This document shows, piece after piece, positions 2,404-9,211 of a stretch of 64,000 nt of DNA. The notes beneath the pieces were generated by a model. The model made no database searches. It saw nothing but the letters and a program-made list of their open reading frames with translations, and was not told the origin of the DNA. This DNA is from a virus. Position numbers and translations under genes: made by a program. How positions within the stretch are numbered: the stretch's first letter is position 1; each line of letters begins with the position of its first letter. The DNA is taken from IMG/VR virus record IMGVR_UViG_3300046542_000086, positions 1 through 64,000 of that record, one strand, 5' to 3'.

Positions 2404-2760
2404 TTAAAGGTACAGATACAAACCCGTGGGTCTGATCATCAACGTCAATTCACCTTCTTGGACCAAGTGGTGGTTACACGCCTTGATCTTCCGGTAAAGC
2501 TGGGTGCGCAGGGTGTTACGCTTGTCAATCAGGTGGATCAGTTTGTAAATGTCATTTGGCGCATTATCCTCACGGAATACCAACAACAGTGTACTTTCAA
2601 TGCAGTCCTTCAACCAGATAGTCTCGATGGTGATCATCAACCACTGGAGTTCGTGTTGCTTTAATAGATGTTGAAACTGAGGGGTGCTTAAGGCGTCCCT
2701 GATCTCAGCCTGCAATAGGATCTGCAAGTTCCGGTAATCAGTTACTATTTGTAAATCCAT
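2404..2760 (-). CDS. Hypothetical protein, 118 aa, first gene after an early promoter
   Basis: ORF starting about 35 nt downstream of a TATATTA motif. Confidence 0.8.
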   Translation of the reverse strand: MDLQIVTDYRNLQILLQAEIRDALSTPQFQHLLKQHELQWLMITIETIWLKDCIESTLLLVFREDNAPNDIYKLIHLIDKRNTLRTQLYRKIKACNHHLVQEGELTLMIRPTGLYLYL

Positions 2761-2789
2761 CGTTCTAACCTTTCTGAAGGTTTGTTCAA

Positions 2790-2812
2790 TTGGATAATAT
2801 AGGTCTCAAACT
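2790..2812 (-). promoter_or_regulatory. phiKZ-type early promoter (variant TATATTAT)
   Basis: Minus strand TTTGAGACCTATATTATCC matches the other copies in the window. Confidence 0.65.
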
Positions 2813-2899
2813 AATTAGGATGACCTCTATGCCCTTTGCTCTATAAGATCAGGGGTATGTGTCAACTTATACAGAGAGTCGACTGAGGAGGCTTACAGA

Positions 2900-2940
2900 C
2901 GGCATAAAGCCCCTCACCGGATAACCAGCAAGGGGCTTTG
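2900..2940 (-). terminator. Hairpin with TTTATGCCG tail ending the tRNA/ncRNA block
   Basis: AAAGCCCCT...AGGGGCTTT stem followed by ATGCCG on the minus strand. Confidence 0.7.
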
Positions 2941-2950
2941 CGCTTTCTAC

Positions 2951-3422
2951 TCGTCGGTCAGCTATCTGTGAGTGGAGTCAGGTCCCCTCTCGGCCAACCT
3001 CATGGCGTCGGATGTAGCCAGGCGTGTTTTCCCACCTCTCGCTCCTGACAGCGATGAGGATTACGGCTAGAACGTACGCACCCCTCCAAATGCCCGGCTC
3101 GGCTGGTAAAGGTAGGATTCCCGATGCGTACTCGATTTACTCTAAAGTAAACCCCCTAGTGTATTACCCTAAGTCTGGCCAGACCGAAGGAGCAATAGAC
3201 TAGAGGCTGCACTTTACCGGGGTGACCAACTATAATGTCGCACGCCCCGACTCTTTACAACTTGAGCCCTTCGCAGGGGCCCCGTATCCTTTACATCGGG
3301 TCTGAGTGCGAGTCAGGTTCCAATGCTTCCTGTAGTACGTCTGCATTCCAGGATGAGGTTGCAAACGCTCAGCCCTTACCGGGCGGAGATACGTGATCCT
3401 CCGCACTCGCAGAGGACGACGA
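2951..3422 (-). ncRNA. Candidate ~470-nt structured ncRNA
   Basis: No ORF of 60 aa or more; nested end-to-end helices 2951-2956/3417-3422, 2965-2974/3404-3413 and 2995-3003/3353-3361; GNRA-capped hairpin on the minus strand. Confidence 0.55.
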
Positions 3423-3429
3423 TTTAGTA

Positions 3430-3930
3430 CCCCCGAACCTACCAGCTCTCTTGGACATATAGTCGTTTGATTTTGGCTGTGGACGGGGGAATCAAGCTAC
3501 CCTCTCTCTTTGAGTCGTCTACGCTTACAGATTTGCCTTGAAGGGGATCTGATTTGTGGTCCGGTCCTAAAAAGTAGTAACCATATCCTACGACGAACAG
3601 GGGATTAGCCTGTGAGGGTACAACTTAGGGTGAGCGGGAAAGCCGAAACCTTCCAGACAGTTAGATGCCCGACGGGGTGGGGCCTGTCCAAGAGTTGGGT
3701 AGATAAAGTCCAACTCAAGACTTGCGATACGCTCACTTAGGGAGCCTTCTCTCTACGTCGGGAAGGTTTATGTTCCGTTGCGCAGTACCATGACCTCGTT
3801 TGACCGAGAGAAGACATTACTCTTTACCCCATTAGTTCCCTTATCCCTGATTACCCTGCGCGTCAGGTCGAACGTAGATAAGGTAGGCGCGACAATGTCG
3901 CCTCGTTTTACTTCTGTTCCCTAAGGAACC
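3430..3930 (-). ncRNA. Hairpin-dense non-coding block including a four-way junction (3630-3736)
   Basis: No ORF; GTGAGCG/CGCTCAC closing stem with three internal arms, one UUCG-capped. Confidence 0.45.
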
Positions 3931-3936
3931 TTCTAA

Positions 3937-4070
3937 TGGGCATCCACCGGCAAGACTCGAACTTGCGACCTCCCGCGCTTCCCTCGCGCTAAACCACCCT
4001 CGCTACCGAAGTAGCTATCGATGGAGCCTTGGGATTAGACGAGTGTTCTAACCGACTGAACTACGGTGGC
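3937..4070 (-). ncRNA. tRNA-like RNA with a 62-nt anticodon loop
   Basis: GCCACCG-TA-GTTC AGTCGGTTA GAAC-A-CTCGT[62 nt]GCGGG-AGGTC-GCAAG TTCGAGT CTTGC-CGGTGGA. Confidence 0.8.
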
Positions 4071-4085
4071 GACTACAACTTAAAT

Positions 4086-4173
4086 TGGCGGAAGAACAGA
4101 GATTCGAACTCTGGGGGCTGTTACACCCGACGGTTTTCAAGACCGTTGCCTTAAGCCACTCGGCCATCCTTCC
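4086..4173 (-). tRNA. trnS: tRNA-Ser(UGA)
   Basis: Full cloverleaf, ACGGT-CT TGA AA-ACCGT, long variable arm, G73, encoded CCA. Confidence 0.95.
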
Positions 4174-4199
4174 AGAAATGATCCAGGATTCTATTCACC

Positions 4200-4385
4200 C
4201 TGGGAGTCACCGTACAGCCAAGGCGGCGGCTGTAATTCATTGGGAACTGAGTAAGGATCGCATGAACCTACGACATCAATACTCACTCTGCCTACCGAAG
4301 ACAGAGCAACACCTCATCGGTTCGTAACGAGTGTGAGCCCGTTACGCTGAGGGTGGTTGGGTAGACACCAGCAGGCGCAGGTGTT
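4200..4385 (-). ncRNA. Candidate structured RNA between the ORF and tRNA-Ser
   Basis: Hairpins TACAGCC/GGCTGTA, CTCTG/CAGAG and CGTAACG/CGTTACG within CCTCA/TGAGG. Confidence 0.35.
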
Positions 4386-4387
4386 CT

Positions 4388-4645
4388 TCAAGTCAAGCCT
4401 TCGCTCGACTCAGTAACTTCAGCAGACCCTTTGACAGGGGCTTGCTCTTCACCTTGCGGCGAAGTGGTGTACACATGGGGAAACAAGGCATTGCATTGCT
4501 CCTTACTGTCTTTTCCGAAGATACGATTCAACGCCTCAGTGAAGCGGACTTCGTCTTCAGGGGTGGGTGGTGGTAAAGGACGACCTGTACAAGCGTGCCA
4601 TCCGACACAACCACAGAGAGAACAACCAGCTGCTGTTTGCGACAT
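4388..4645 (-). CDS. Small protein with a Cys/His cluster (CSLCGCVGWHAC)
   Basis: GAGGA RBS; co-oriented with the tRNAs. Confidence 0.7.
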   Translation of the reverse strand: MSQTAAGCSLCGCVGWHACTGRPLPPPTPEDEVRFTEALNRIFGKDSKEQCNALFPHVYTTSPQGEEQAPVKGSAEVTESSEGLT

Positions 4646-4664
4646 TTGGTAATCCTCAGAATGG

Positions 4665-4753
4665 TGGCAGTAGATGAGAGATTCGAACTCTCGAGGCCCG
4701 AAGACCTACACCCTTAGCAGGGGCGCTCCTTAATCCATCTCAGACAATCTACT
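4665..4753 (-). tRNA. trnS: tRNA-Ser(GCU)
   Basis: AGTAGAT/ATCTACT acceptor, CGCCC-CT GCT AA-GGGTG, UUCG-capped variable arm, G73, CCA followed by a second CCA. Confidence 0.9.
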
Positions 4754-4810
4754 GTAAAAGGGTGCTTCGATCATTACCCGGTGTGTGGTCTGTTTTTTGG
4801 TTTGTAGATC

Positions 4811-4898
4811 TGGTGGCCCCACCAGGATTTCGGGTTGTACCTGAAATGCTACCTCGGAGGGTAGAGTTATACCTTACGGCGTTTTTAACTACAGGGCC
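4811..4898 (-). ncRNA. tRNA-like RNA with expanded D and T loops and a 6-nt anticodon loop
   Basis: GGCCCTG/TGGGGCC-ACCA acceptor; GTTA/TAAC D stem; CTACC-CTCCGA-GGTAG; TCAGG/CCTGG T stem with a 13-nt loop. Confidence 0.7.
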
Positions 4899-4922
4899 TT
4901 TCTTACCACACCACTGATCGAA

Positions 4923-4995
4923 TGTCTTCTTAGGAGAATCGAACTCCCGTGAGTCGCCTGTGTGGCAACCGTTCTACCATTGAACTATCGAAGAC
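4923..4995 (-). pseudogene. Degenerate tRNA or tRNA mimic (loop CACACAG, no U33, two acceptor mismatches, no CCA)
   Basis: GTTC AATGGTA GAAC D arm, GTTGC/GCGAC stem, GGGAG TTCGATT CTCCT T arm. Confidence 0.7.
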
Positions 4996-5023
4996 GGGGC
5001 GAGTTGTTTCCCTTAGGTCTGTG

Positions 5024-5167
5024 CTTTCTGAGGTCGGATTCGAACCGACAAAGTCGCGTGCTCAAGCCATTACGCTGCGCACTGGACGGCACCCACAGAC
5101 AGGCGGCCCACTATGGGACTAGGGGATGCGATCCCCAGGGTATACCAATTCCCCCACTCGAGGGAAA
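5024..5167 (-). ncRNA. Leu-type tRNA-like RNA with a 72-nt branched variable arm
   Basis: GGG GAATTGGTATA CCC D arm, GGGGA-TCGCA-TCCCC, 72-nt insert, GTCGG TTCGAAT CCGAC T arm. Confidence 0.75.
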
Positions 5168-5195
5168 CAACTCTATCCACCCCTAAGGTGGAATT

Positions 5196-5272
5196 TGGCT
5201 CACCTTCTAGGACTCGAACCTAGGACACCTCGGTTAACAGCCGAGTGCAACTACCAACTGTGCTAAAGGTGA
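5196..5272 (-). tRNA. trnN: tRNA-Asn(GUU)
   Basis: TCACCTT/AAGGTGA acceptor, CTCGG-CT GTT AA-CCGAG, G73, CCA. Confidence 0.95.
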
Positions 5273-5281
5273 ATGAAACTT

Positions 5282-5521
5282 TTAACACATGACAGCAGGG
5301 CCAGTGTCACTATGACAAGGACAGGTACAAACCTTCTCCTCATCGCCATTTGGTTTTACCATGACCCAGTTACGGTGGGGTCTTGGTGAAGTGAAATCAC
5401 GTTCTTCAATACGAACAATCTCACCAAACAGTTTTCGAAGGCGTTCGACATCGGGTTGACTATCGTAACCGACCTTGAAAGTTGCTTGGGGGACACTGCA
5501 ACATCCGAACATGACATTCAC
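5282..5521 (-). CDS. Small Cys-containing hypothetical protein (CTCPCH)
   Basis: GGAG RBS; packed with neighbours. Confidence 0.7.
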   Translation of the reverse strand: MNVMFGCCSVPQATFKVGYDSQPDVERLRKLFGEIVRIEERDFTSPRPHRNWVMVKPNGDEEKVCTCPCHSDTGPAVMC

Positions 5522-5529
5522 TCCGGTGC

Positions 5530-5712
5530 TTAGGAAGCCGTTACAACTTCGGCAACCTTGATTTCGCGGTCGTCGTAGACAACACGATCAGCGGACTGAC
5601 CATCTTGCAGGACGAACTGTTCGTGAACTTCGCCAGTGACGCGATTCACGATGGTCACTTCTACATGCTTTTCAGCCGAGCAGTGAGCTTGAACTTTTAC
5701 AGAAGTAGTCAT
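5530..5712 (-). CDS. Hypothetical protein, 60 aa
   Basis: AAGGAG RBS, highly expressed codon style. Confidence 0.8.
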   Translation of the reverse strand: MTTSVKVQAHCSAEKHVEVTIVNRVTGEVHEQFVLQDGQSADRVVYDDREIKVAEVVTAS

Positions 5713-5722
5713 GATGACTCCT

Positions 5723-6184
5723 TTAGAGGGTTTCCAGGATCTGCCAGTCGTCAGCCAGTTGATCCGACTGAGCCGGAGTCCACGGGGTGAAGACGTTCTG
5801 AGCAGTCTTCATGCCGACCCATGGAGCTAAGGTTGGACACTCGTTGACACCGGGTTTGAAGCCAATGGTTGCGCAGCCTACGTCGTAATGACCAGGCTTA
5901 ACCATCACCAACCACATACCTTGACCATTCCACGAAGGGCGAGTAACTCGCTTACCTTGCTTCAGGGCTTCGATAGCGAGACCGAAGTTCAGAGCATCGC
6001 ATGGACGGTAGCTGTCCTCGAACACGGCTTTAGGCGACCACGACTGGTGACCGTTGTCGTATTCAACTAGGTAGCCTTCATCAGCACCGTTCTCGCCGGC
6101 AGGAAGTTCCCAGCCTTTACGGTGGTTGTACTCCAACCGAGTCATCGGTTTACCAACAACCTTCTTGGTGCCAATGTAGTTCAT
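5723..6184 (-). CDS. DUF2829 / Tad2-like anti-defence sponge protein with an extra N-terminal domain
   Basis: FGLAIEALKQGKRVTRPSWNGQGMWL...WTPAQSDQLADDW signature. Confidence 0.75.
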   Translation of the reverse strand: MNYIGTKKVVGKPMTRLEYNHRKGWELPAGENGADEGYLVEYDNGHQSWSPKAVFEDSYRPCDALNFGLAIEALKQGKRVTRPSWNGQGMWLVMVKPGHYDVGCATIGFKPGVNECPTLAPWVGMKTAQNVFTPWTPAQSDQLADDWQILETL

Positions 6185-6193
6185 GACTAATCC

Positions 6194-6355
6194 TTAACAG
6201 ACCATGATGGGCACTGGTATGCCCTGTTCTTTGCAAACACGCTCAAGGTTCTCCTGAGCATCCTGCCATTGCTTTAGCCTAGCGAGGGTTTCCTCACGAG
6301 ACTGGGGTTTGATCTTGGAACGATCCAGATCACGTAAGCGAAATGTACGTACCAT
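6194..6355 (-). CDS. Small protein, 53 aa (MVRTFRLRDLDRSK...PIMVC)
   Basis: Hand-translated; AAGGAG RBS; below the ORF-track cutoff. Confidence 0.7.
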   Translation of the reverse strand: MVRTFRLRDLDRSKIKPQSREETLARLKQWQDAQENLERVCKEQGIPVPIMVC

Positions 6356-6436
6356 GACCAACTCCTTAAAAAATGGGACTGTTGCCTCGAAAGGCTTAGA
6401 GTCTGTGACGACCCGACCCCGACAGTTAGCGGGATT

Positions 6437-6654
6437 TCAACGTAGGTTGCTTTATACCTGACTAAGCGACCAACCTGTTGAGGATTGGCTAGGGGTATGA
6501 TCCCTAGTTCTCTCTACGTTGATTTTCTGAAGTTGACAGAGGAGAAAGGCGGCTCGTTTTATCTCCCGACTTGTACCCATGCACCTTAATGAACCACTGG
6601 GCGGCTCCTTTGAGTGCGGTTCGGCTGTACCCTACCGTCTGTCAATCAACTTCA
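6437..6654 (-). ncRNA. Two adjacent end-paired structured elements (6437-6522 and 6528-6654) directly downstream of tRNA-Asp
   Basis: 9-bp closing stems TCAACGTAG/CTACGTTGA and TGAAGTTGA/TCAACTTCA. Confidence 0.5.
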
Positions 6655-6660
6655 AAAAAC

Positions 6661-6737
6661 TGGCGCCTCCGAACGGACTTGAACCGTCGACCCCTAGCGT
6701 GACAGGCTAGTGCTCTAACCAACTGAGCTACGGAAGC
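6661..6737 (-). tRNA. trnD: tRNA-Asp(GUC)
   Basis: GCTTCCG/CGGAGGC acceptor, CTAGC-CT GTC AC-GCTAG, G73, CCA. Confidence 0.95.
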
Positions 6738-6937
6738 GAAAAGGTCCTGAGGAAGATGGACTCTGCGATCACCCAGACTGTGCCTGTAGGTGCATCGCTT
6801 GTAGGCTCAAGGTTCGTATAGACAACCATGGGCCAAGAACAGTCTTGAGCGTGACGAGCTAGGCTTAGCACTTTAAAGCGCAGCCCACTAGGAGATTTGT
6901 ACTCTCTTAGTTCCTCGATACTCTCTAACATGTTCAT
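6728..6937 (-). CDS. DUF1653-like small protein
   Basis: Y...G..FKVL..ARH.....MVVY..L......WV.....F pattern; GAGGA RBS. Confidence 0.7.
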   Translation of the reverse strand: MNMLESIEELREYKSPSGLRFKVLSLARHAQDCSWPMVVYTNLEPTSDAPTGTVWVIAESIFLRTFSLP

Positions 6938-6950
6938 TCCTCAAATAGGT

Positions 6951-7174
6951 GATCCTCCCAGCGTCTGAACGCCGGGTTAATGCTGAGGCGCGCCCGTAAC
7001 CGACATTCGCTCAAAAGGCTCGTCTAAGTGGGCGCACAGCAAAGGATCGTAAATGTGACCAGTGTTGTGCATCGAAGCACTGCTAGTTCCCGGACCGCAC
7101 TAGCTTTCCAATGTATACGGCTGACGCGATGTCAGCTATGGCCCTACACACTGACCTCCCTGAGGTACACTGGT
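6951..7174 (-). ncRNA. Two end-paired multibranch elements (6951-7048 and 7058-7174)
   Basis: GATCCT/AGGATC and ACCAGTGT/ACACTGGT closing stems; four internal hairpins in the second, the last being GTGC-TTCGAT-GCAC. Confidence 0.55.
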
Positions 7175-7180
7175 ATAAAC

Positions 7181-7337
7181 TGGCCCCGAGGGATGGATTC
7201 GAACCATCGACCTATCCGTTCAACCGACTCCGTTTGACGGGAGAGTTTAGTTACACCCGCCCAGTCAACTCCACCTTGCGGCTCACGTTGCGAATACGGA
7301 TGCTCTCGGACTGTTCTACCAACTGAACTACCCAGGG
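7181..7337 (-). ncRNA. tRNA-like RNA with an 88-nt structured anticodon loop and encoded CCA
   Basis: CCCTGGG-TA-GTTC AGTTGGTA GAAC-A-GTCCG[88 nt]CGGAT-AGGTC-GATGG TTCGAAT CCATC-CCTCGGG-G-CCA. Confidence 0.85.
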
Positions 7338-7346
7338 GATAAACCT

Positions 7347-7502
7347 TTAATAGTACTCACCACGCTCAGGACGAGCCTTAGTGGCACCGATCCCAACGAT
7401 GAACACGACTGCGAATACAACCAGTCCTGCTGTTGGGCTGAAGACTGCTGGAACAGCCGCCGTGAGTAACGCGGGTACAAATACAAACACTGCGCGCATC
7501 AT
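7347..7502 (-). CDS. Small membrane protein, 51 aa (MMRAVFVFVPALL...GEYY)
   Basis: Hand-translated; AAGGAGAG RBS; two hydrophobic stretches. Confidence 0.7.
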   Translation of the reverse strand: MMRAVFVFVPALLTAAVPAVFSPTAGLVVFAVVFIVGIGATKARPERGEYY

Positions 7503-7814
7503 GACGACTCTCCTTGAATTTAACCGCTACCCCGACCTACGGAACGAAATACAACAGTGTGGCCCAAGTGGTAAAAAGAAAAGAAAAACCACTTGGTAAT
7601 GCGGCATGCAAGCGCATCATGTATCACACCGTTGCCGGGTCACGCATTGACTAAACCGTAATCTACCGGATACCCGTCATTTCCAGTATATCCCAAAGGG
7701 AAGATTCCCCCAAAGCCGTGAAGCCTTAGGTCGTGCTGGAATCACTACTATCAGCCAATAACGCGTTAGTCTCTCAATAGATCAGTGTTCCATGTAAAAA
7801 AATACGTAAGTACA

Positions 7815-7846
7815 GGCAAAAAAAAAGAAGCCCCCGAAGAGGCTCC
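7815..7846 (-). terminator. Intrinsic terminator with U tract
   Basis: GGAGCCTC-TTCG-GGGGCTTC followed by T9. Confidence 0.85.
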
Positions 7847-7851
7847 CTTAA

Positions 7852-8040
7852 TCACCAACCAACTTTACGCCTCAACCTAGGATTTAGGAAGGGGGCGATA
7901 AACCCTACGAAGAGGATCACGTTGGCCAGTATGTACATTGCGAAGTGGTGCACAAACTTGATGTCGATCACTGCTACGAGCACGTAGAGCATGATTACGC
8001 AGAACGGATAGATGTAACCGCTGGGCATAGGTTTCTTCAT
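7852..8040 (-). CDS. Small two-TM membrane protein
   Basis: Hydrophobic ORF; likely start MKKPMPS. Confidence 0.65.
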   Translation of the reverse strand: MKKPMPSGYIYPFCVIMLYVLVAVIDIKFVHHFAMYILANVILFVGFIAPFLNPRLRRKVGW

Positions 8041-8050
8041 GGACTGTACC

Positions 8051-8461
8051 TTAAGGGATTGCTGGGAAACCAACGATCTTCAAGATCAGATTGCGTTTAC
8101 GACGGTACCAACCTGCTGACTTCGCTGGGAAGCCTCTGTCACCACTTTGCTTACGGATTTGATTGTCGTCTTCGAACAACAGGGGGATGGGGAAGTATCT
8201 CCAGTGTTTAGGGTCACCAGAGCGCACCAGAGCGTGCAGGGTGCGTTTGCTCCACTTACCTGTCTCAATGCCCATGATCAACTCTTGCTTGATCTCTTCG
8301 TGCTCTGCTTCGCTTGGATAGATCTCGAACAAGTTCTTGTAATGAGCAACTGTGGTTTTGTCATCGTTGGTAGTCTTCTCCATGATGAAGAGGACGCCAC
8401 CGATGTCGTGTAGGGAAGTGTTACCGTTTTCGTACTTGTGGGTGATATGATCGGCAGACAT
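8051..8461 (-). CDS. Early hypothetical protein
   Basis: Start MSADHIT with AAGAAGG RBS, just downstream of an early promoter. Confidence 0.75.
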   Translation of the reverse strand: MSADHITHKYENGNTSLHDIGGVLFIMEKTTNDDKTTVAHYKNLFEIYPSEAEHEEIKQELIMGIETGKWSKRTLHALVRSGDPKHWRYFPIPLLFEDDNQIRKQSGDRGFPAKSAGWYRRKRNLILKIVGFPAIP

Positions 8462-8506
8462 GATTTTTGCCTTCTTAGGTATGGGGAGATTAAAGAGTCT
8501 CACTAT

Positions 8507-8538
8507 TCACCTGAGTAATATAGGTCTGAAACTTATTT
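8507..8538 (-). promoter_or_regulatory. phiKZ-type early promoter
   Basis: AAGTTTCAGACCTATATTACTCAGGTGA. Confidence 0.8.
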
Positions 8539-8590
8539 GCTTCAACCCAAATAGAATGTAGGTGTTATCTTTAATCACTGGGGTGTCCAC

Positions 8591-9211
8591 ATGGGGCGTT
8601 TAATAAATCTGCTAGAGGAAGCTGAACTTTCCTTAACGTACAGCGCAGAAGGGATCGCTTCATTGGAAGACGGTGCCAACGAAGCAGTAGCTACAAAAGC
8701 CATCTATATCCTCCTCACCGATACCAAGACCCTAGTTAGTAAGGTCAGCCGTATGGTGACTGGTGATCCGTATAACCACGTTTCGCTGATGTTGTCGGAT
8801 GACTTTGACGATGGTATCTATACCTTCAGTCTTAGCAATGGCTTAAACGGCATAAAGGGCGGGTTCATGGTGGAGAGTCGTAAGAACCTGAAAGGCTCAC
8901 GCTACTCCATGTATCGCTTGCCTGTTACGTCAGCTAGCTACGACCGGATTAAAGATCGGGTAACTGGGTACGTTAAGGGTGTTGACAAAACCTCCTACAA
9001 CCACCTAGGGTTGTTCAATGCGATCTTCAACAAGAACATCTTCAAGACAGAGGACGGACAATCCTCAATCTGCTCTGAGTTCGTGGTGGAAGTCCTGAAG
9101 TTCTCTGGAGTGGAACTCTTCTCCAAAAGATTAGCGAGCACTGTAAGACCTTACGAGATCGTTAAATCGAAACTGCTGAAGTTCCACAAGCGTGGCGTCA
9201 TAAAAGGCTAA
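8591..9211 (+). CDS. Permuted papain-like (NlpC/P60, YiiX/YebB-type) enzyme, possible head protein
   Basis: YNHVSL (His) precedes ICSEFV (Cys); N-terminal SAE and SLE motifs. Confidence 0.65.
   Translation: MGRLINLLEEAELSLTYSAEGIASLEDGANEAVATKAIYILLTDTKTLVSKVSRMVTGDPYNHVSLMLSDDFDDGIYTFSLSNGLNGIKGGFMVESRKNLKGSRYSMYRLPVTSASYDRIKDRVTGYVKGVDKTSYNHLGLFNAIFNKNIFKTEDGQSSICSEFVVEVLKFSGVELFSKRLASTVRPYEIVKSKLLKFHKRGVIKG

What the first reader, a model, noticed from the sequence alone, without database searches (positions are those of the whole stretch)
7181..7337. CCA-ended tRNA scaffold with an 88-nt anticodon domain
This is the cleanest example: canonical U8/A9, D arm, AGGTC variable loop, T arm and G-CCA. 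The loop (7219-7306) folds into CC-GCAA-GG and TTGAC...GTCAA helices, and the 5' stem strand is duplicated (GTCCG and ATCCGT). It resembles a natural version of engineered tRNA-scaffold expression RNAs. It is not tmRNA (too short, has a D stem, no tag ORF).
Basis: partly seen in the sequence, partly recalled or inferred. Interest (0 to 1): 0.75.

Follow-up and report, generated by a model that had tools for sequence, protein, structure and literature searches.

The report
Anticodon-less tRNA-shaped phage RNA
Among the tRNA genes of an uncultured phiKZ-like giant phage lies a gene for an RNA shaped like a tRNA, but with a conserved 88-base folded domain where the anticodon loop should be; it cannot read codons, resembles the unexplained tRNA-like stable RNAs of phages T4 and T5, and has no known job.

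Summary
On the minus strand, 7181-7337 has a full class I tRNA frame: acceptor, U8/A9, D arm, 5-bp anticodon stem, AGGUC, T arm and G-CCA. An 88-nt insert (7219-7306) replaces the anticodon loop.

It is a selected RNA gene. Three related IMG/VR jumbo-phage contigs carry it, one copy each. Six helix pairs show compensatory changes, and the elbow pair G19:C56 becomes A19:U56 in one relative.

It is not a decoding tRNA. No single-block deletion rebuilds a U33/R37 anticodon loop. CCA is encoded in 2 of 4 copies. One relative has a decayed frame but a 99% identical insert.

Frame and insert have discordant histories, and a 35-nt block of the insert is almost invariant.

No Rfam family fits the insert. 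It is not YrlA: no Ro gene, and the topology is wrong. It is not tmRNA and not a recognisable intron.

The best reading is a tRNA frame that serves as a processing and stability handle for a functional RNA domain. The kind is known from T4 rnaC and T5 RNA1/RNA2, so this is a new family of a known, unexplained kind.

This scan noted the same family before on a related genome (e1-5651778, e1-5651788). Expression and function are untested.

The parts
7181..7337 (-). Whole tRNA-framed RNA gene, 157 nt including the encoded CCA
   Evidence: Conserved in L017, L018 and L019.
7331..7337 (-). Acceptor stem, 5' strand (CCCUGGG)
   Evidence: Pairs with 7185-7191, 6 of 7 pairs. The stem covaries among relatives (helix 1).
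7313..7328 (-). D arm: GUUC stem and AGUUGGUA loop with G18 G19
   Evidence: G19 becomes A in L018 together with C56 to U.
7307..7311 (-). Anticodon stem, 5' strand (GUCCG)
   Evidence: Invariant in 4 of 4 copies and pairs with 7214-7218 (helix 3). With no variation there is no covariation test.
7219..7306 (-). 88-nt insert that replaces the 7-nt anticodon loop
   Evidence: One copy per genome. No Rfam family.
7254..7302 (-). Long hairpin of the insert: a 7-bp helix, a 4-bp helix and a 3-bp helix capped by GCAA, separated by internal loops
   Evidence: Compensatory changes in all three helices (helices 5-7). It is also part of the minimum-energy fold.
7219..7253 (-). Nearly invariant 35-nt block of the insert; contains the small hairpin CCGU-NAA-ACGG at 7230-7240
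   Evidence: 33-35 of 35-36 positions are identical in every pair of copies, while the hairpin half drops to 33 of 55. The only variable base of the small hairpin is in its loop.
7214..7218 (-). Anticodon stem, 3' strand (CGGAU)
   Evidence: helix 3.
7192..7208 (-). T arm GAUGG-UUCGAAU-CCAUC
   Evidence: One stem pair shows four pair types across the four copies (helix 9).
7181..7191 (-). Acceptor 3' strand (CCUCGGG), discriminator G and encoded CCA
   Evidence: CCA is present in the window and L018 and absent in L017 and L019.
7347..7502 (-). Upstream 51-aa hydrophobic ORF; its stop codon lies 9 nt before the RNA. Context: probably co-transcribed
   Evidence: Kept in all three relatives. No sigma-70-like promoter between them, and the nearest terminator-like hairpins lie upstream of the ORF, at 7588-7605 and 7824-7849.

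Best explanation
This is a gene for a non-decoding, tRNA-framed small RNA. The tRNA frame (acceptor stem, D arm, T arm and the elbow they form) acts as a handle. Host tRNA-processing enzymes would cut the RNA out of a longer transcript, and the frame would protect it. The 88-nt domain grafted onto the anticodon stem is the working part. It most likely binds a conserved host or phage factor through its nearly invariant 35-nt block.

Shown here: the gene is conserved, selection acts on RNA structure, it cannot decode, and the frame is exchangeable while the insert is kept.

Inferred: RNase P and 3'-end processing, stability, and any binding partner.
For: 1. The RNA structure is under selection. 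97.1% of cells pair against 24-46% for slid controls, and 6 pairs have changes on both sides (0 of 500 shuffles reach the observed value on four of five measures). The tertiary elbow pair G19:C56 becomes A19:U56 in L018.
2. It cannot decode. 0 of 14, 14, 16 and 19 single-deletion products have U33 and R37.
3. The insert is better kept than the frame. Window against L019: insert 87 of 88 identical, frame 50 of 66. L019 has G8, G14, two acceptor mismatches and no CCA.
4. The histories are discordant. The window's frame is closest to L018 (60 of 65), but its insert is closest to L019 (87 of 88, against 66 of 91 for L018). This indicates exchange of frame against insert.
5. CCA is encoded in 2 of 4 copies, against 22 of 26 ARAGORN-called tRNAs in the same four loci.
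6. The short frame inside the insert is not conserved as a peptide, whereas the helices are.
7. The same design with other inserts occurs nearby: at 3942-4070, in L017 at 7755-7853, and in 3 of 5 cultured jumbo phages examined.
8. T5 RNA2, annotated 'tRNA-like stable RNA', has the same layout of frame plus a large middle insert.
Against: There is no expression evidence at all: no RNA run holds this phage, so processing and stability are assumed.

Only 4 sequences are available, and 3 of them are close, so the covariation rests mainly on L018. Shuffle controls ignore relatedness.

The anticodon stem, the 4-bp helix that closes the junction and the small hairpin never vary, so they are untested.

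The whole element is not unusually stable (z = -0.18).

No partner or target was found. The best complementarity to the window is 10-11 nt, which is chance level.

The elbow covariation shows that the frame's shape itself is selected, which fits a mimic reading equally well.
Confidence: 0.55

Rival explanations
1. It is a tRNA mimic in which the frame is the active part. The RNA would occupy or mislead a protein that recognises the tRNA L-shape, such as a host tRNA-cleaving defence nuclease, a processing or modification enzyme, or a synthetase. The insert would block normal use.
For: The elbow pair covaries (G19:C56 to A19:U56), and the T stem and acceptor covary, so the L-shape is selected. 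A Tad2-like anti-defence gene lies about 1 kb downstream in the same island (E 8.8e-24). Several differently filled tRNA frames sit in the same island.
Against: L019 keeps the insert at 99% while its frame loses U8, A14, two acceptor pairs and CCA. A 35-nt block of the insert is nearly invariant, which a mere blocking insert would not need. No anticodon loop is present for anticodon nucleases to recognise.
Confidence: 0.2
2. It is a cis-acting end structure of the upstream mRNA. A tRNA-like punctuation mark would direct RNase P cleavage and define or stabilise the 3' end of the 51-aa ORF's transcript.
For: The ORF's stop codon lies 9 nt upstream. No promoter-like site lies between, and the nearest terminator-like hairpins lie upstream of the ORF, at 7588-7605 and 7824-7849. 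The ORF and the RNA stay adjacent in L018 and L019.
Against: In L017 another tRNA-like gene lies between them. A plain tRNA would serve the purpose. The conserved, covarying 88-nt domain is left unexplained.
Confidence: 0.1
3. It is an intron-containing tRNA gene. The 88 nt would be removed by an unrecognised splicing route to give a working tRNA, as proposed for the 'enigmatic' tRNA introns of Lak megaphages.
For: The insert sits in the anticodon loop, where tRNA introns lie. Devoto et al. 2019 report conserved inserts in phage tRNAs and call them introns (passages read).
Against: No single excision gives U33 and R37 in any of the four copies. The insert has no group I or other ribozyme hit, and I recall that known group I introns are considerably longer than 88 nt. 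No RtcB ligase was found in the 4 records. By eye I found no bulge-helix-bulge at the junctions. The acceptor, discriminator and CCA are not kept. L019's frame would make a poor tRNA.
Confidence: 0.07
4. It is a dead tRNA gene disrupted by an insertion, with no function.
For: It scores below the tRNA gathering score (22.1 against 29 bits), and one acceptor pair is mismatched.
Against: Compensatory changes occur in 6 pairs. The insert is 93-99% identical where flanking DNA is about 80-85%. There is one copy per genome, so it is not a repeated mobile insert.
Confidence: 0.05

Closest known systems
Phage T5 RNA1 (144 nt) and RNA2 (125 nt), annotated 'tRNA-like stable RNA with unknown functions' (NC_005859 misc_RNA T5s03 and T5s06)
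   Same: Both are encoded inside the phage tRNA gene cluster. RNA2 folds with an acceptor stem, a D-like arm, a canonical T arm and a large insert in the middle. My model of the present element aligns to RNA2 end to end through the frame (22.1 bits).
   Different: The inserts share no sequence, and the match is to the tRNA frame only. The host and phage lineage differ (T5 against phiKZ-like). The T5 RNAs are annotated as stable RNAs in the record; this one has no expression data.
Phage T4 rnaC (species 1 RNA, 139 nt) and rnaD (species 2), 'small, stable RNA' (NC_000866)
   Same: They lie at the end of the T4 tRNA cluster. rnaC has a canonical T arm next to a terminal helix, plus long hairpins, and its function is unknown.
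   Different: rnaC has no recognisable D arm or anticodon stem in the fold. The present RNA keeps the complete cloverleaf frame. My model gave no hit on rnaC or rnaD.
Engineered tRNA-scaffold expression RNAs (recalled from Ponchon and Dardel; not read here)
   Same: The design is the same: a foreign structured RNA is grafted onto the anticodon stem of a tRNA, so that the cell processes and protects it.
   Different: Those are man-made. The resemblance is by design logic only and was not tested.
'Enigmatic' introns in tRNA genes of Lak megaphages (Devoto et al. 2019, PMC6784885; passages read)
   Same: Those are oversized phage tRNA genes with highly conserved inserted sequence and no Rfam class.
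   Different: The Lak genes were assigned an anticodon and an excision point by tRNAscan in eukaryote mode. Here no excision restores an anticodon loop.
YrlA, bacterial Y RNA-like RNA (Rfam RF02553; Chen et al. 2014, PMC4201824; passages read)
   Same: It is a non-decoding RNA with a tRNA-like domain.
   Different: YrlA is encoded next to Ro60, carries a Ro-binding stem at its ends, and has its T and D arms in permuted order. None of these holds here.

Membership tests
Canonical tRNA (Rfam RF00005) | Score at or above the family's gathering score of 29 bits | tested here: not met
   22.1 bits, model positions 10-63 only. ARAGORN makes no call.
Canonical tRNA (Rfam RF00005) | Cloverleaf frame: 7-bp acceptor, 4-bp D stem, 5-bp anticodon stem, 5-bp T stem with UUCRANY loop | tested here: met
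   One U.C mismatch in the acceptor.
Canonical tRNA (Rfam RF00005) | 7-nt anticodon loop with U33 and a purine at position 37, directly or after removal of one block | tested here: not met
   The loop is 88 nt. 0 of 14, 14, 16 and 19 deletion products qualify in the four copies.
Canonical tRNA (Rfam RF00005) | Elbow pair 19:56 between the D and T loops | tested here: met
   G19:C56 in three copies and A19:U56 in L018.
Canonical tRNA (Rfam RF00005) | Aminoacylation | not testable with these tools
   The discriminator varies (G, G, C, C), and CCA is encoded in 2 of 4 copies.
Phage tRNA-like stable RNAs (T4 rnaC; T5 RNA1/RNA2) | Encoded within the phage's tRNA gene cluster | tested here: met
   Four ARAGORN tRNAs lie at 4086-6737 on the same strand. 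In relatives, tRNA-Tyr and tRNA-Gln follow directly.
Phage tRNA-like stable RNAs (T4 rnaC; T5 RNA1/RNA2) | Acceptor-type terminal helix plus a canonical T arm, with non-tRNA structure in between | tested here: met
   for this RNA; for T4 and T5.
Phage tRNA-like stable RNAs (T4 rnaC; T5 RNA1/RNA2) | Accumulates as a discrete stable RNA in infected cells | not testable with these tools
   No RNA run is listed for this phage.
Phage tRNA-like stable RNAs (T4 rnaC; T5 RNA1/RNA2) | Sequence homology of the non-tRNA part | tested here: not met
   Model R1 hits T5 RNA2 only through the frame (22.1 bits) and does not hit rnaC. blastn of the insert against 50,697 phage records gives only a 24-nt match inside a Streptomyces phage gene.
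YrlA (RF02553) | Match to the covariance model | tested here: not met
   No YrlA hit at E up to 10 in 3000-9000 or in 7170-7350.
YrlA (RF02553) | Encoded within about 4 kb of a Ro60/TROVE gene (Chen et al. 2014) | tested here: not met
   PF05731 is found in 0 of 4 records, two of them 86% complete.
tmRNA | Detected by ARAGORN; G3:U70 alanine identity; conserved tag reading frame | tested here: not met
   No tmRNA call. Position 3:70 is C:G. The 11-codon frame of the window reads on differently in L018.
Self-splicing or self-cleaving intron (group I, small ribozymes) | Match to a ribozyme family | tested here: not met
   No such hit at E up to 10 on 181 nt.
Protein-spliced (bulge-helix-bulge) tRNA intron | Two 3-nt bulges around a 4-bp helix at the exon-intron junctions, plus a ligase | tested here: inconclusive
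   None is seen by eye at the junctions, but no program was run. RtcB is found in 0 of 4 records. The splicing endonuclease was not searched.

The most novel reading that the evidence does not exclude
Nucleus-forming (phiKZ-like) jumbo phages may use tRNA frames as interchangeable handles for a whole repertoire of structured RNA effectors. The frame would recruit host tRNA processing and protect the RNA, and might also route it out of the phage nucleus. Each insert would be a separate effector. The nearly invariant 35-nt block of this one would bind a conserved host factor, for example as an RNA counter-defence decoy encoded beside the Tad2-like gene. That would give the 50-year-old T4 and T5 stable RNAs a function class.
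Probability: 0.25. Interest if true: 0.75.

Novelty: new member of a known kind. Interest (0 to 1): 0.5.

Why it matters
Phage tRNA clusters have long been annotated as holding tRNA-like stable RNAs of unknown function. Examples are T4 rnaC and rnaD and T5 RNA1 and RNA2.

This element adds a clean comparative case. The frame and the insert evolve separately, and a short invariant block marks the likely active site.

Similar unannotated elements in the cultured phages FLC9 (Burkholderia), RP12 (Ralstonia) and RTH11 (Xanthomonas) would make the class testable at the bench.

It is also a natural counterpart of the engineered tRNA scaffold.

For annotation, such genes are missed by ARAGORN and fall below Rfam's tRNA threshold.

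Tried and rejected
**Searches for more members**
- A D-arm-to-T-loop pattern with a gap found 15 stretches. All were pairs of adjacent ordinary tRNAs.
- A 20-nt block of the insert found only the 3 known relatives in viral contigs. It found 0 in metagenome contigs and 0 in genome contigs.
- A 16-nt hairpin pattern found 59 stretches (60 sites). Only 3 were the element; the rest looked like terminator hairpins or unrelated DNA.
- A two-block pattern found 0 in metagenome contigs.
- Protein-guided searches with two neighbouring genes returned the same three contigs.
- megablast and blastn against the phage collection found nothing related. E. coli genomes gave no match.

**Expression**
- No RNA holder is listed for this phage. 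This is no evidence either way.

**Read laying**
- All runs are contigs.
- DNA runs X15 (record 3, 7071-7534, 52 other letters and 11 gaps) and X4 (record 19) hold diverged relatives of the element. I could not obtain their sequences.
- X2 and X4 show a tandem layout, a tRNA-like gene followed by an L019-type copy, as in L017.
- One X4 contig joins 7212 to 7318 with unknown letters between. It is DNA, laid at 80% likeness with a 23-nt side, and is most simply an ordinary tRNA with similar arms. It is not evidence of splicing.
- X9 is labelled RNA-Seq by its library but is only a guess. I draw nothing from it.

**Readings considered and dropped**
- A peptide tag: the frame is not conserved.
- A T-loop to internal-loop pseudoknot: one compensated and one broken pair in L018, and broken in L019 (by eye).
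- A sarcin-ricin-like GAGA loop: the closing pair is lost in L018 (by eye).
- GGA-motif protein sponge: one of three motifs is not conserved and another lies in the anticodon stem.
- Antisense target in the window: best match 10-11 nt, chance level.
- The motif TTAAAGGTTT upstream as a recurrent promoter: 4 matches against 2.96 expected.
- Xoo-sp14, the nearest cultured phage by one protein (30% identity), has no tRNA hits.
- My guess that the ORF at 6728-6937 is DUF1653 was not confirmed (0 families).

**Literature**
- Eight searches ran. They found no description of this family, and no paper on T4 species 1 or T5 RNA1/2 in the held library.
- Supplements were closed. This matters for Devoto 2019 Table S6 and the Chen 2014 tables.

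Full report
**Source.** The window is the first 64 kb of an 81.7-kb IMG/VR virus record that CheckV rates 30% complete. Its proteins match phiKZ families: phiKZ_gp29PR, phiKZ internal head protein and DUF7193. The nearest cultured phage by one 483-aa protein is Xanthomonas phage Xoo-sp14, at only 30% identity. It is therefore a fragment of an uncultured phiKZ-like jumbo phage. The best DNA holder is a rhizosphere metagenome, which may be the source sample.

**The observation.** Read on the minus strand from 7337 to 7181, the element has these parts:
- a 7-pair acceptor stem with one U.C mismatch;
- U8 A9;
- a 4-bp D stem with a GG-containing loop;
- A26;
- a 5-bp anticodon stem, GUCCG/CGGAU;
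- the variable loop AGGUC;
- a canonical T arm;
- discriminator G and CCA.

Between the two strands of the anticodon stem lie 88 nt (7306-7219) instead of 7. Rfam's tRNA model aligns positions 10-63 around exactly this 88-nt insertion. It scores 22.1 bits, under the gathering score of 29. ARAGORN calls four ordinary tRNAs nearby but not this one. The coordinates and the listed tRNA features are correct.

**Relatives and selection.** A neighbouring protein led to three related contigs: 238.8 kb, 238.0 kb and 94 kb. Each has one copy of the element at the syntenic place. I found no further members. The evidence from the four-row alignment is as follows.
- With a structure I wrote from the tRNA frame plus the insert helices, 97.1% of cells pair, against 24-46% when partners are slid.
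- Six pairs carry changes on both sides, and 0 of 500 column shuffles reach the observed values on four of the five measures, 1 of 500 on the fifth.
- The compensations lie in the acceptor stem, the T stem and all three helices of a long hairpin in the insert. These are 7 bp, 4 bp and 3 bp, capped by a GNRA loop.
- The D-loop G19 and T-loop C56, which form the elbow pair of a real tRNA, change together to A and U in L018.
- Caveats: there are only four sequences, and three of them are close. The shuffle control ignores relatedness. The anticodon stem, the junction helix and the small hairpin CCGU-NAA-ACGG never vary, so they are untested.
- The element as a whole is not more stable than shuffles (z = -0.18).

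- The GCAA-capped hairpin is right.
- The TTGAC/GTCAA pairing loses 2 of 5 pairs in L018. Its TTG belongs instead to the compensated 4-bp helix.
- The 'second copy' of the stem strand (ATCCGT) is one strand of the compensated 7-bp helix, not an alternative register.

**It does not decode.**
- I tested every way of removing one contiguous block to leave a class I anticodon arm, with variable loops of 3 to 7 nt.
- Among products with at least 4 of 5 stem pairs (14, 14, 16 and 19 in the four copies), none has U33 and a purine at position 37 (earlier version).
- The discriminator is G, G, C and C in the four copies.
- CCA is encoded in 2 of 4 copies, against 22 of 26 ARAGORN-called tRNAs of the same loci.
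- L019 has G8, G14 and two unpaired acceptor positions.
- An 11-codon frame inside the insert (GUG to UAA) begins with AUG in L017, but in L018 it reads through as a different peptide. All changes fit the helices, so the RNA is selected, not a peptide.

**Frame and insert evolve apart.**

| Comparison | Frame identical | Insert identical |
|---|---|---|
| Window against L019 | 50 of 66 | 87 of 88 |
| Window against L018 | 60 of 65 | 66 of 91 |

- The window therefore combines an L018-type frame with an L019-type insert.
- Within the insert, the hairpin half diverges with compensation (33 of 55 against L018).
- The last 35 nt (7253-7219) stay at 33-35 of 35-36 in every comparison. Flanking DNA is about 80-85% identical.
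- This block is the best candidate for the working site.

**What it is not.**
- No Rfam family matches the insert at E up to 10.
No TROVE/Ro gene is found in the four records, two of them 86% complete. The topology is also unpermuted, unlike YrlA as described by Chen et al. 2014 (passages).
- No RtcB is present.
- There is no tmRNA call.
- The insert occurs once per genome, so it is not a repeated mobile insert.
- No convincing antisense target lies in the window.

**Company it keeps.**
- The same island holds other tRNA frames that cannot decode. The element at 3942-4070 has a 60-nt insert. It is kept in all three relatives, with a covarying anticodon stem but no conserved anticodon and no CCA.
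- L017 has an extra tandem tRNA-like gene with an anticodon stem extended to about 11 bp.
- Among five cultured jumbo phages searched with the tRNA model and with my model R1, three carry unannotated hits of 108-156 nt. These are tRNA frames with inserts of roughly 35-85 nt.
  - The three are FLC9, RP12 and RTH11, with two elements each.
  - LucasX and phiKZ have none over 100 nt.
- R1 scores ordinary tRNA-Asn-like genes highest (59.4 bits in RP12). No hit aligns the insert. The frame is thus a generic class I tRNA, and this insert is confined to the four contigs.

**Context.**
- A 51-aa hydrophobic ORF ends 9 nt upstream.
- No sigma-70-like promoter lies between the ORF and the RNA. The nearest terminator-like hairpins lie upstream of the ORF, at 7588-7605 and 7824-7849. 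The RNA is probably cut out of a longer transcript.
- A protein with a Tad2-like anti-Thoeris domain is encoded about 1 kb downstream. This marks the island as accessory or counter-defence DNA, which is a weak hint only.

**Comparison with what is known.**
- The T4 record annotates rnaC and rnaD, and the T5 record annotates RNA1, RNA2 and RNA3, as (tRNA-like) stable RNAs of unknown function inside the tRNA clusters.
- rnaC folds with a T arm and a terminal helix plus long hairpins.
- T5 RNA2 folds as acceptor, D-like arm, large middle insert and T arm. R1 matches it end to end through the frame (22.1 bits).
- The kind is therefore known. This family, its insert and its frame-against-insert mosaic are not described in the papers I could search (8 searches; see Tried and rejected).
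- Devoto et al. 2019 called conserved inserts in Lak phage tRNAs 'enigmatic introns' (passages). Here the intron reading fails the anticodon test.
- The resemblance to engineered tRNA scaffolds is recalled, not tested.
- Earlier agents of this scan reached a like reading on a related genome. I re-derived the frame and insert discordance and the T5 comparison myself.

**Verdict.**
- This is a real, selected, non-decoding tRNA-framed RNA gene.
- The most likely mechanism is a tRNA handle for processing and stability that carries a functional RNA domain (0.55). A frame-based tRNA mimic is the main rival (0.2).
- Expression, ends, charging and partner are all untested.

Noticed in passing
window 3942-4070 (-): A second tRNA frame with a 60-nt insert (Rfam tRNA 42.4 bits). 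All three relatives keep it, with covarying acceptor and anticodon stems. There is no conserved anticodon sequence, no CCA, and a conserved 3' trailer.
   Followed up: partly
window 5006-5172 (-): A canonical T arm at about 5033-5049 is enclosed by a perfect 12-bp long-range helix (GAGTTGTTTCCC with GGGAAACAACTC, read). No acceptor partner was found by my scan, and there is no Rfam hit beyond the T arm.
   Followed up: no
window 4924-4994 (-): A tRNA-model hit of 31.6 bits whose anticodon loop reads CACACAG, with A at position 33 and no CCA. ARAGORN does not call it.
   Followed up: no
L017 7755-7853 (+): An extra tandem tRNA-like gene directly upstream of the element. Its acceptor matches the window's element, and its anticodon stem is extended to about 11 bp. 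The leader TTTTAAAGGTTT is duplicated. Contigs of runs X2 and X4 show the same tandem layout.
   Followed up: partly
LC667451.1 128916-129205; AP017924.1 131862-132187; OQ790161.1 75697-76001 (loci L098-L100): The cultured jumbo phages FLC9, RP12 and RTH11 carry tRNA frames with large anticodon-position inserts; in the records I checked (FLC9 and RP12) they are unannotated. One pair (RTH11_a, FLC9_b) shares an insert that begins with a T-arm-like hairpin. RTH11_b has a T arm and a D arm nested inside its insert.
   Followed up: partly
window 5723-6184 (-): A 153-aa protein with a Tad2-like (Thoeris anti-defence 2) domain, E 8.8e-24, sits among the tRNA and tRNA-like genes.
   Followed up: partly
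window 7059-7180 (-): The 120 nt downstream of the element are non-coding. They are 84% identical to L017 and hold three short hairpins. In relatives, tRNA-Tyr and tRNA-Gln follow, but the window lacks both.
   Followed up: no
window 2760-3940 (-): About 1.2 kb without an ORF of 80 aa or more lies next to the tRNA island. It is conserved at 80-83% in relatives and has no Rfam hit at the gathering threshold.
   Followed up: no
window 7269-7292 (-): A 24-nt exact match to a protein-coding gene of Streptomyces phage Galactica (E 0.006). It is probably chance.
   Followed up: no
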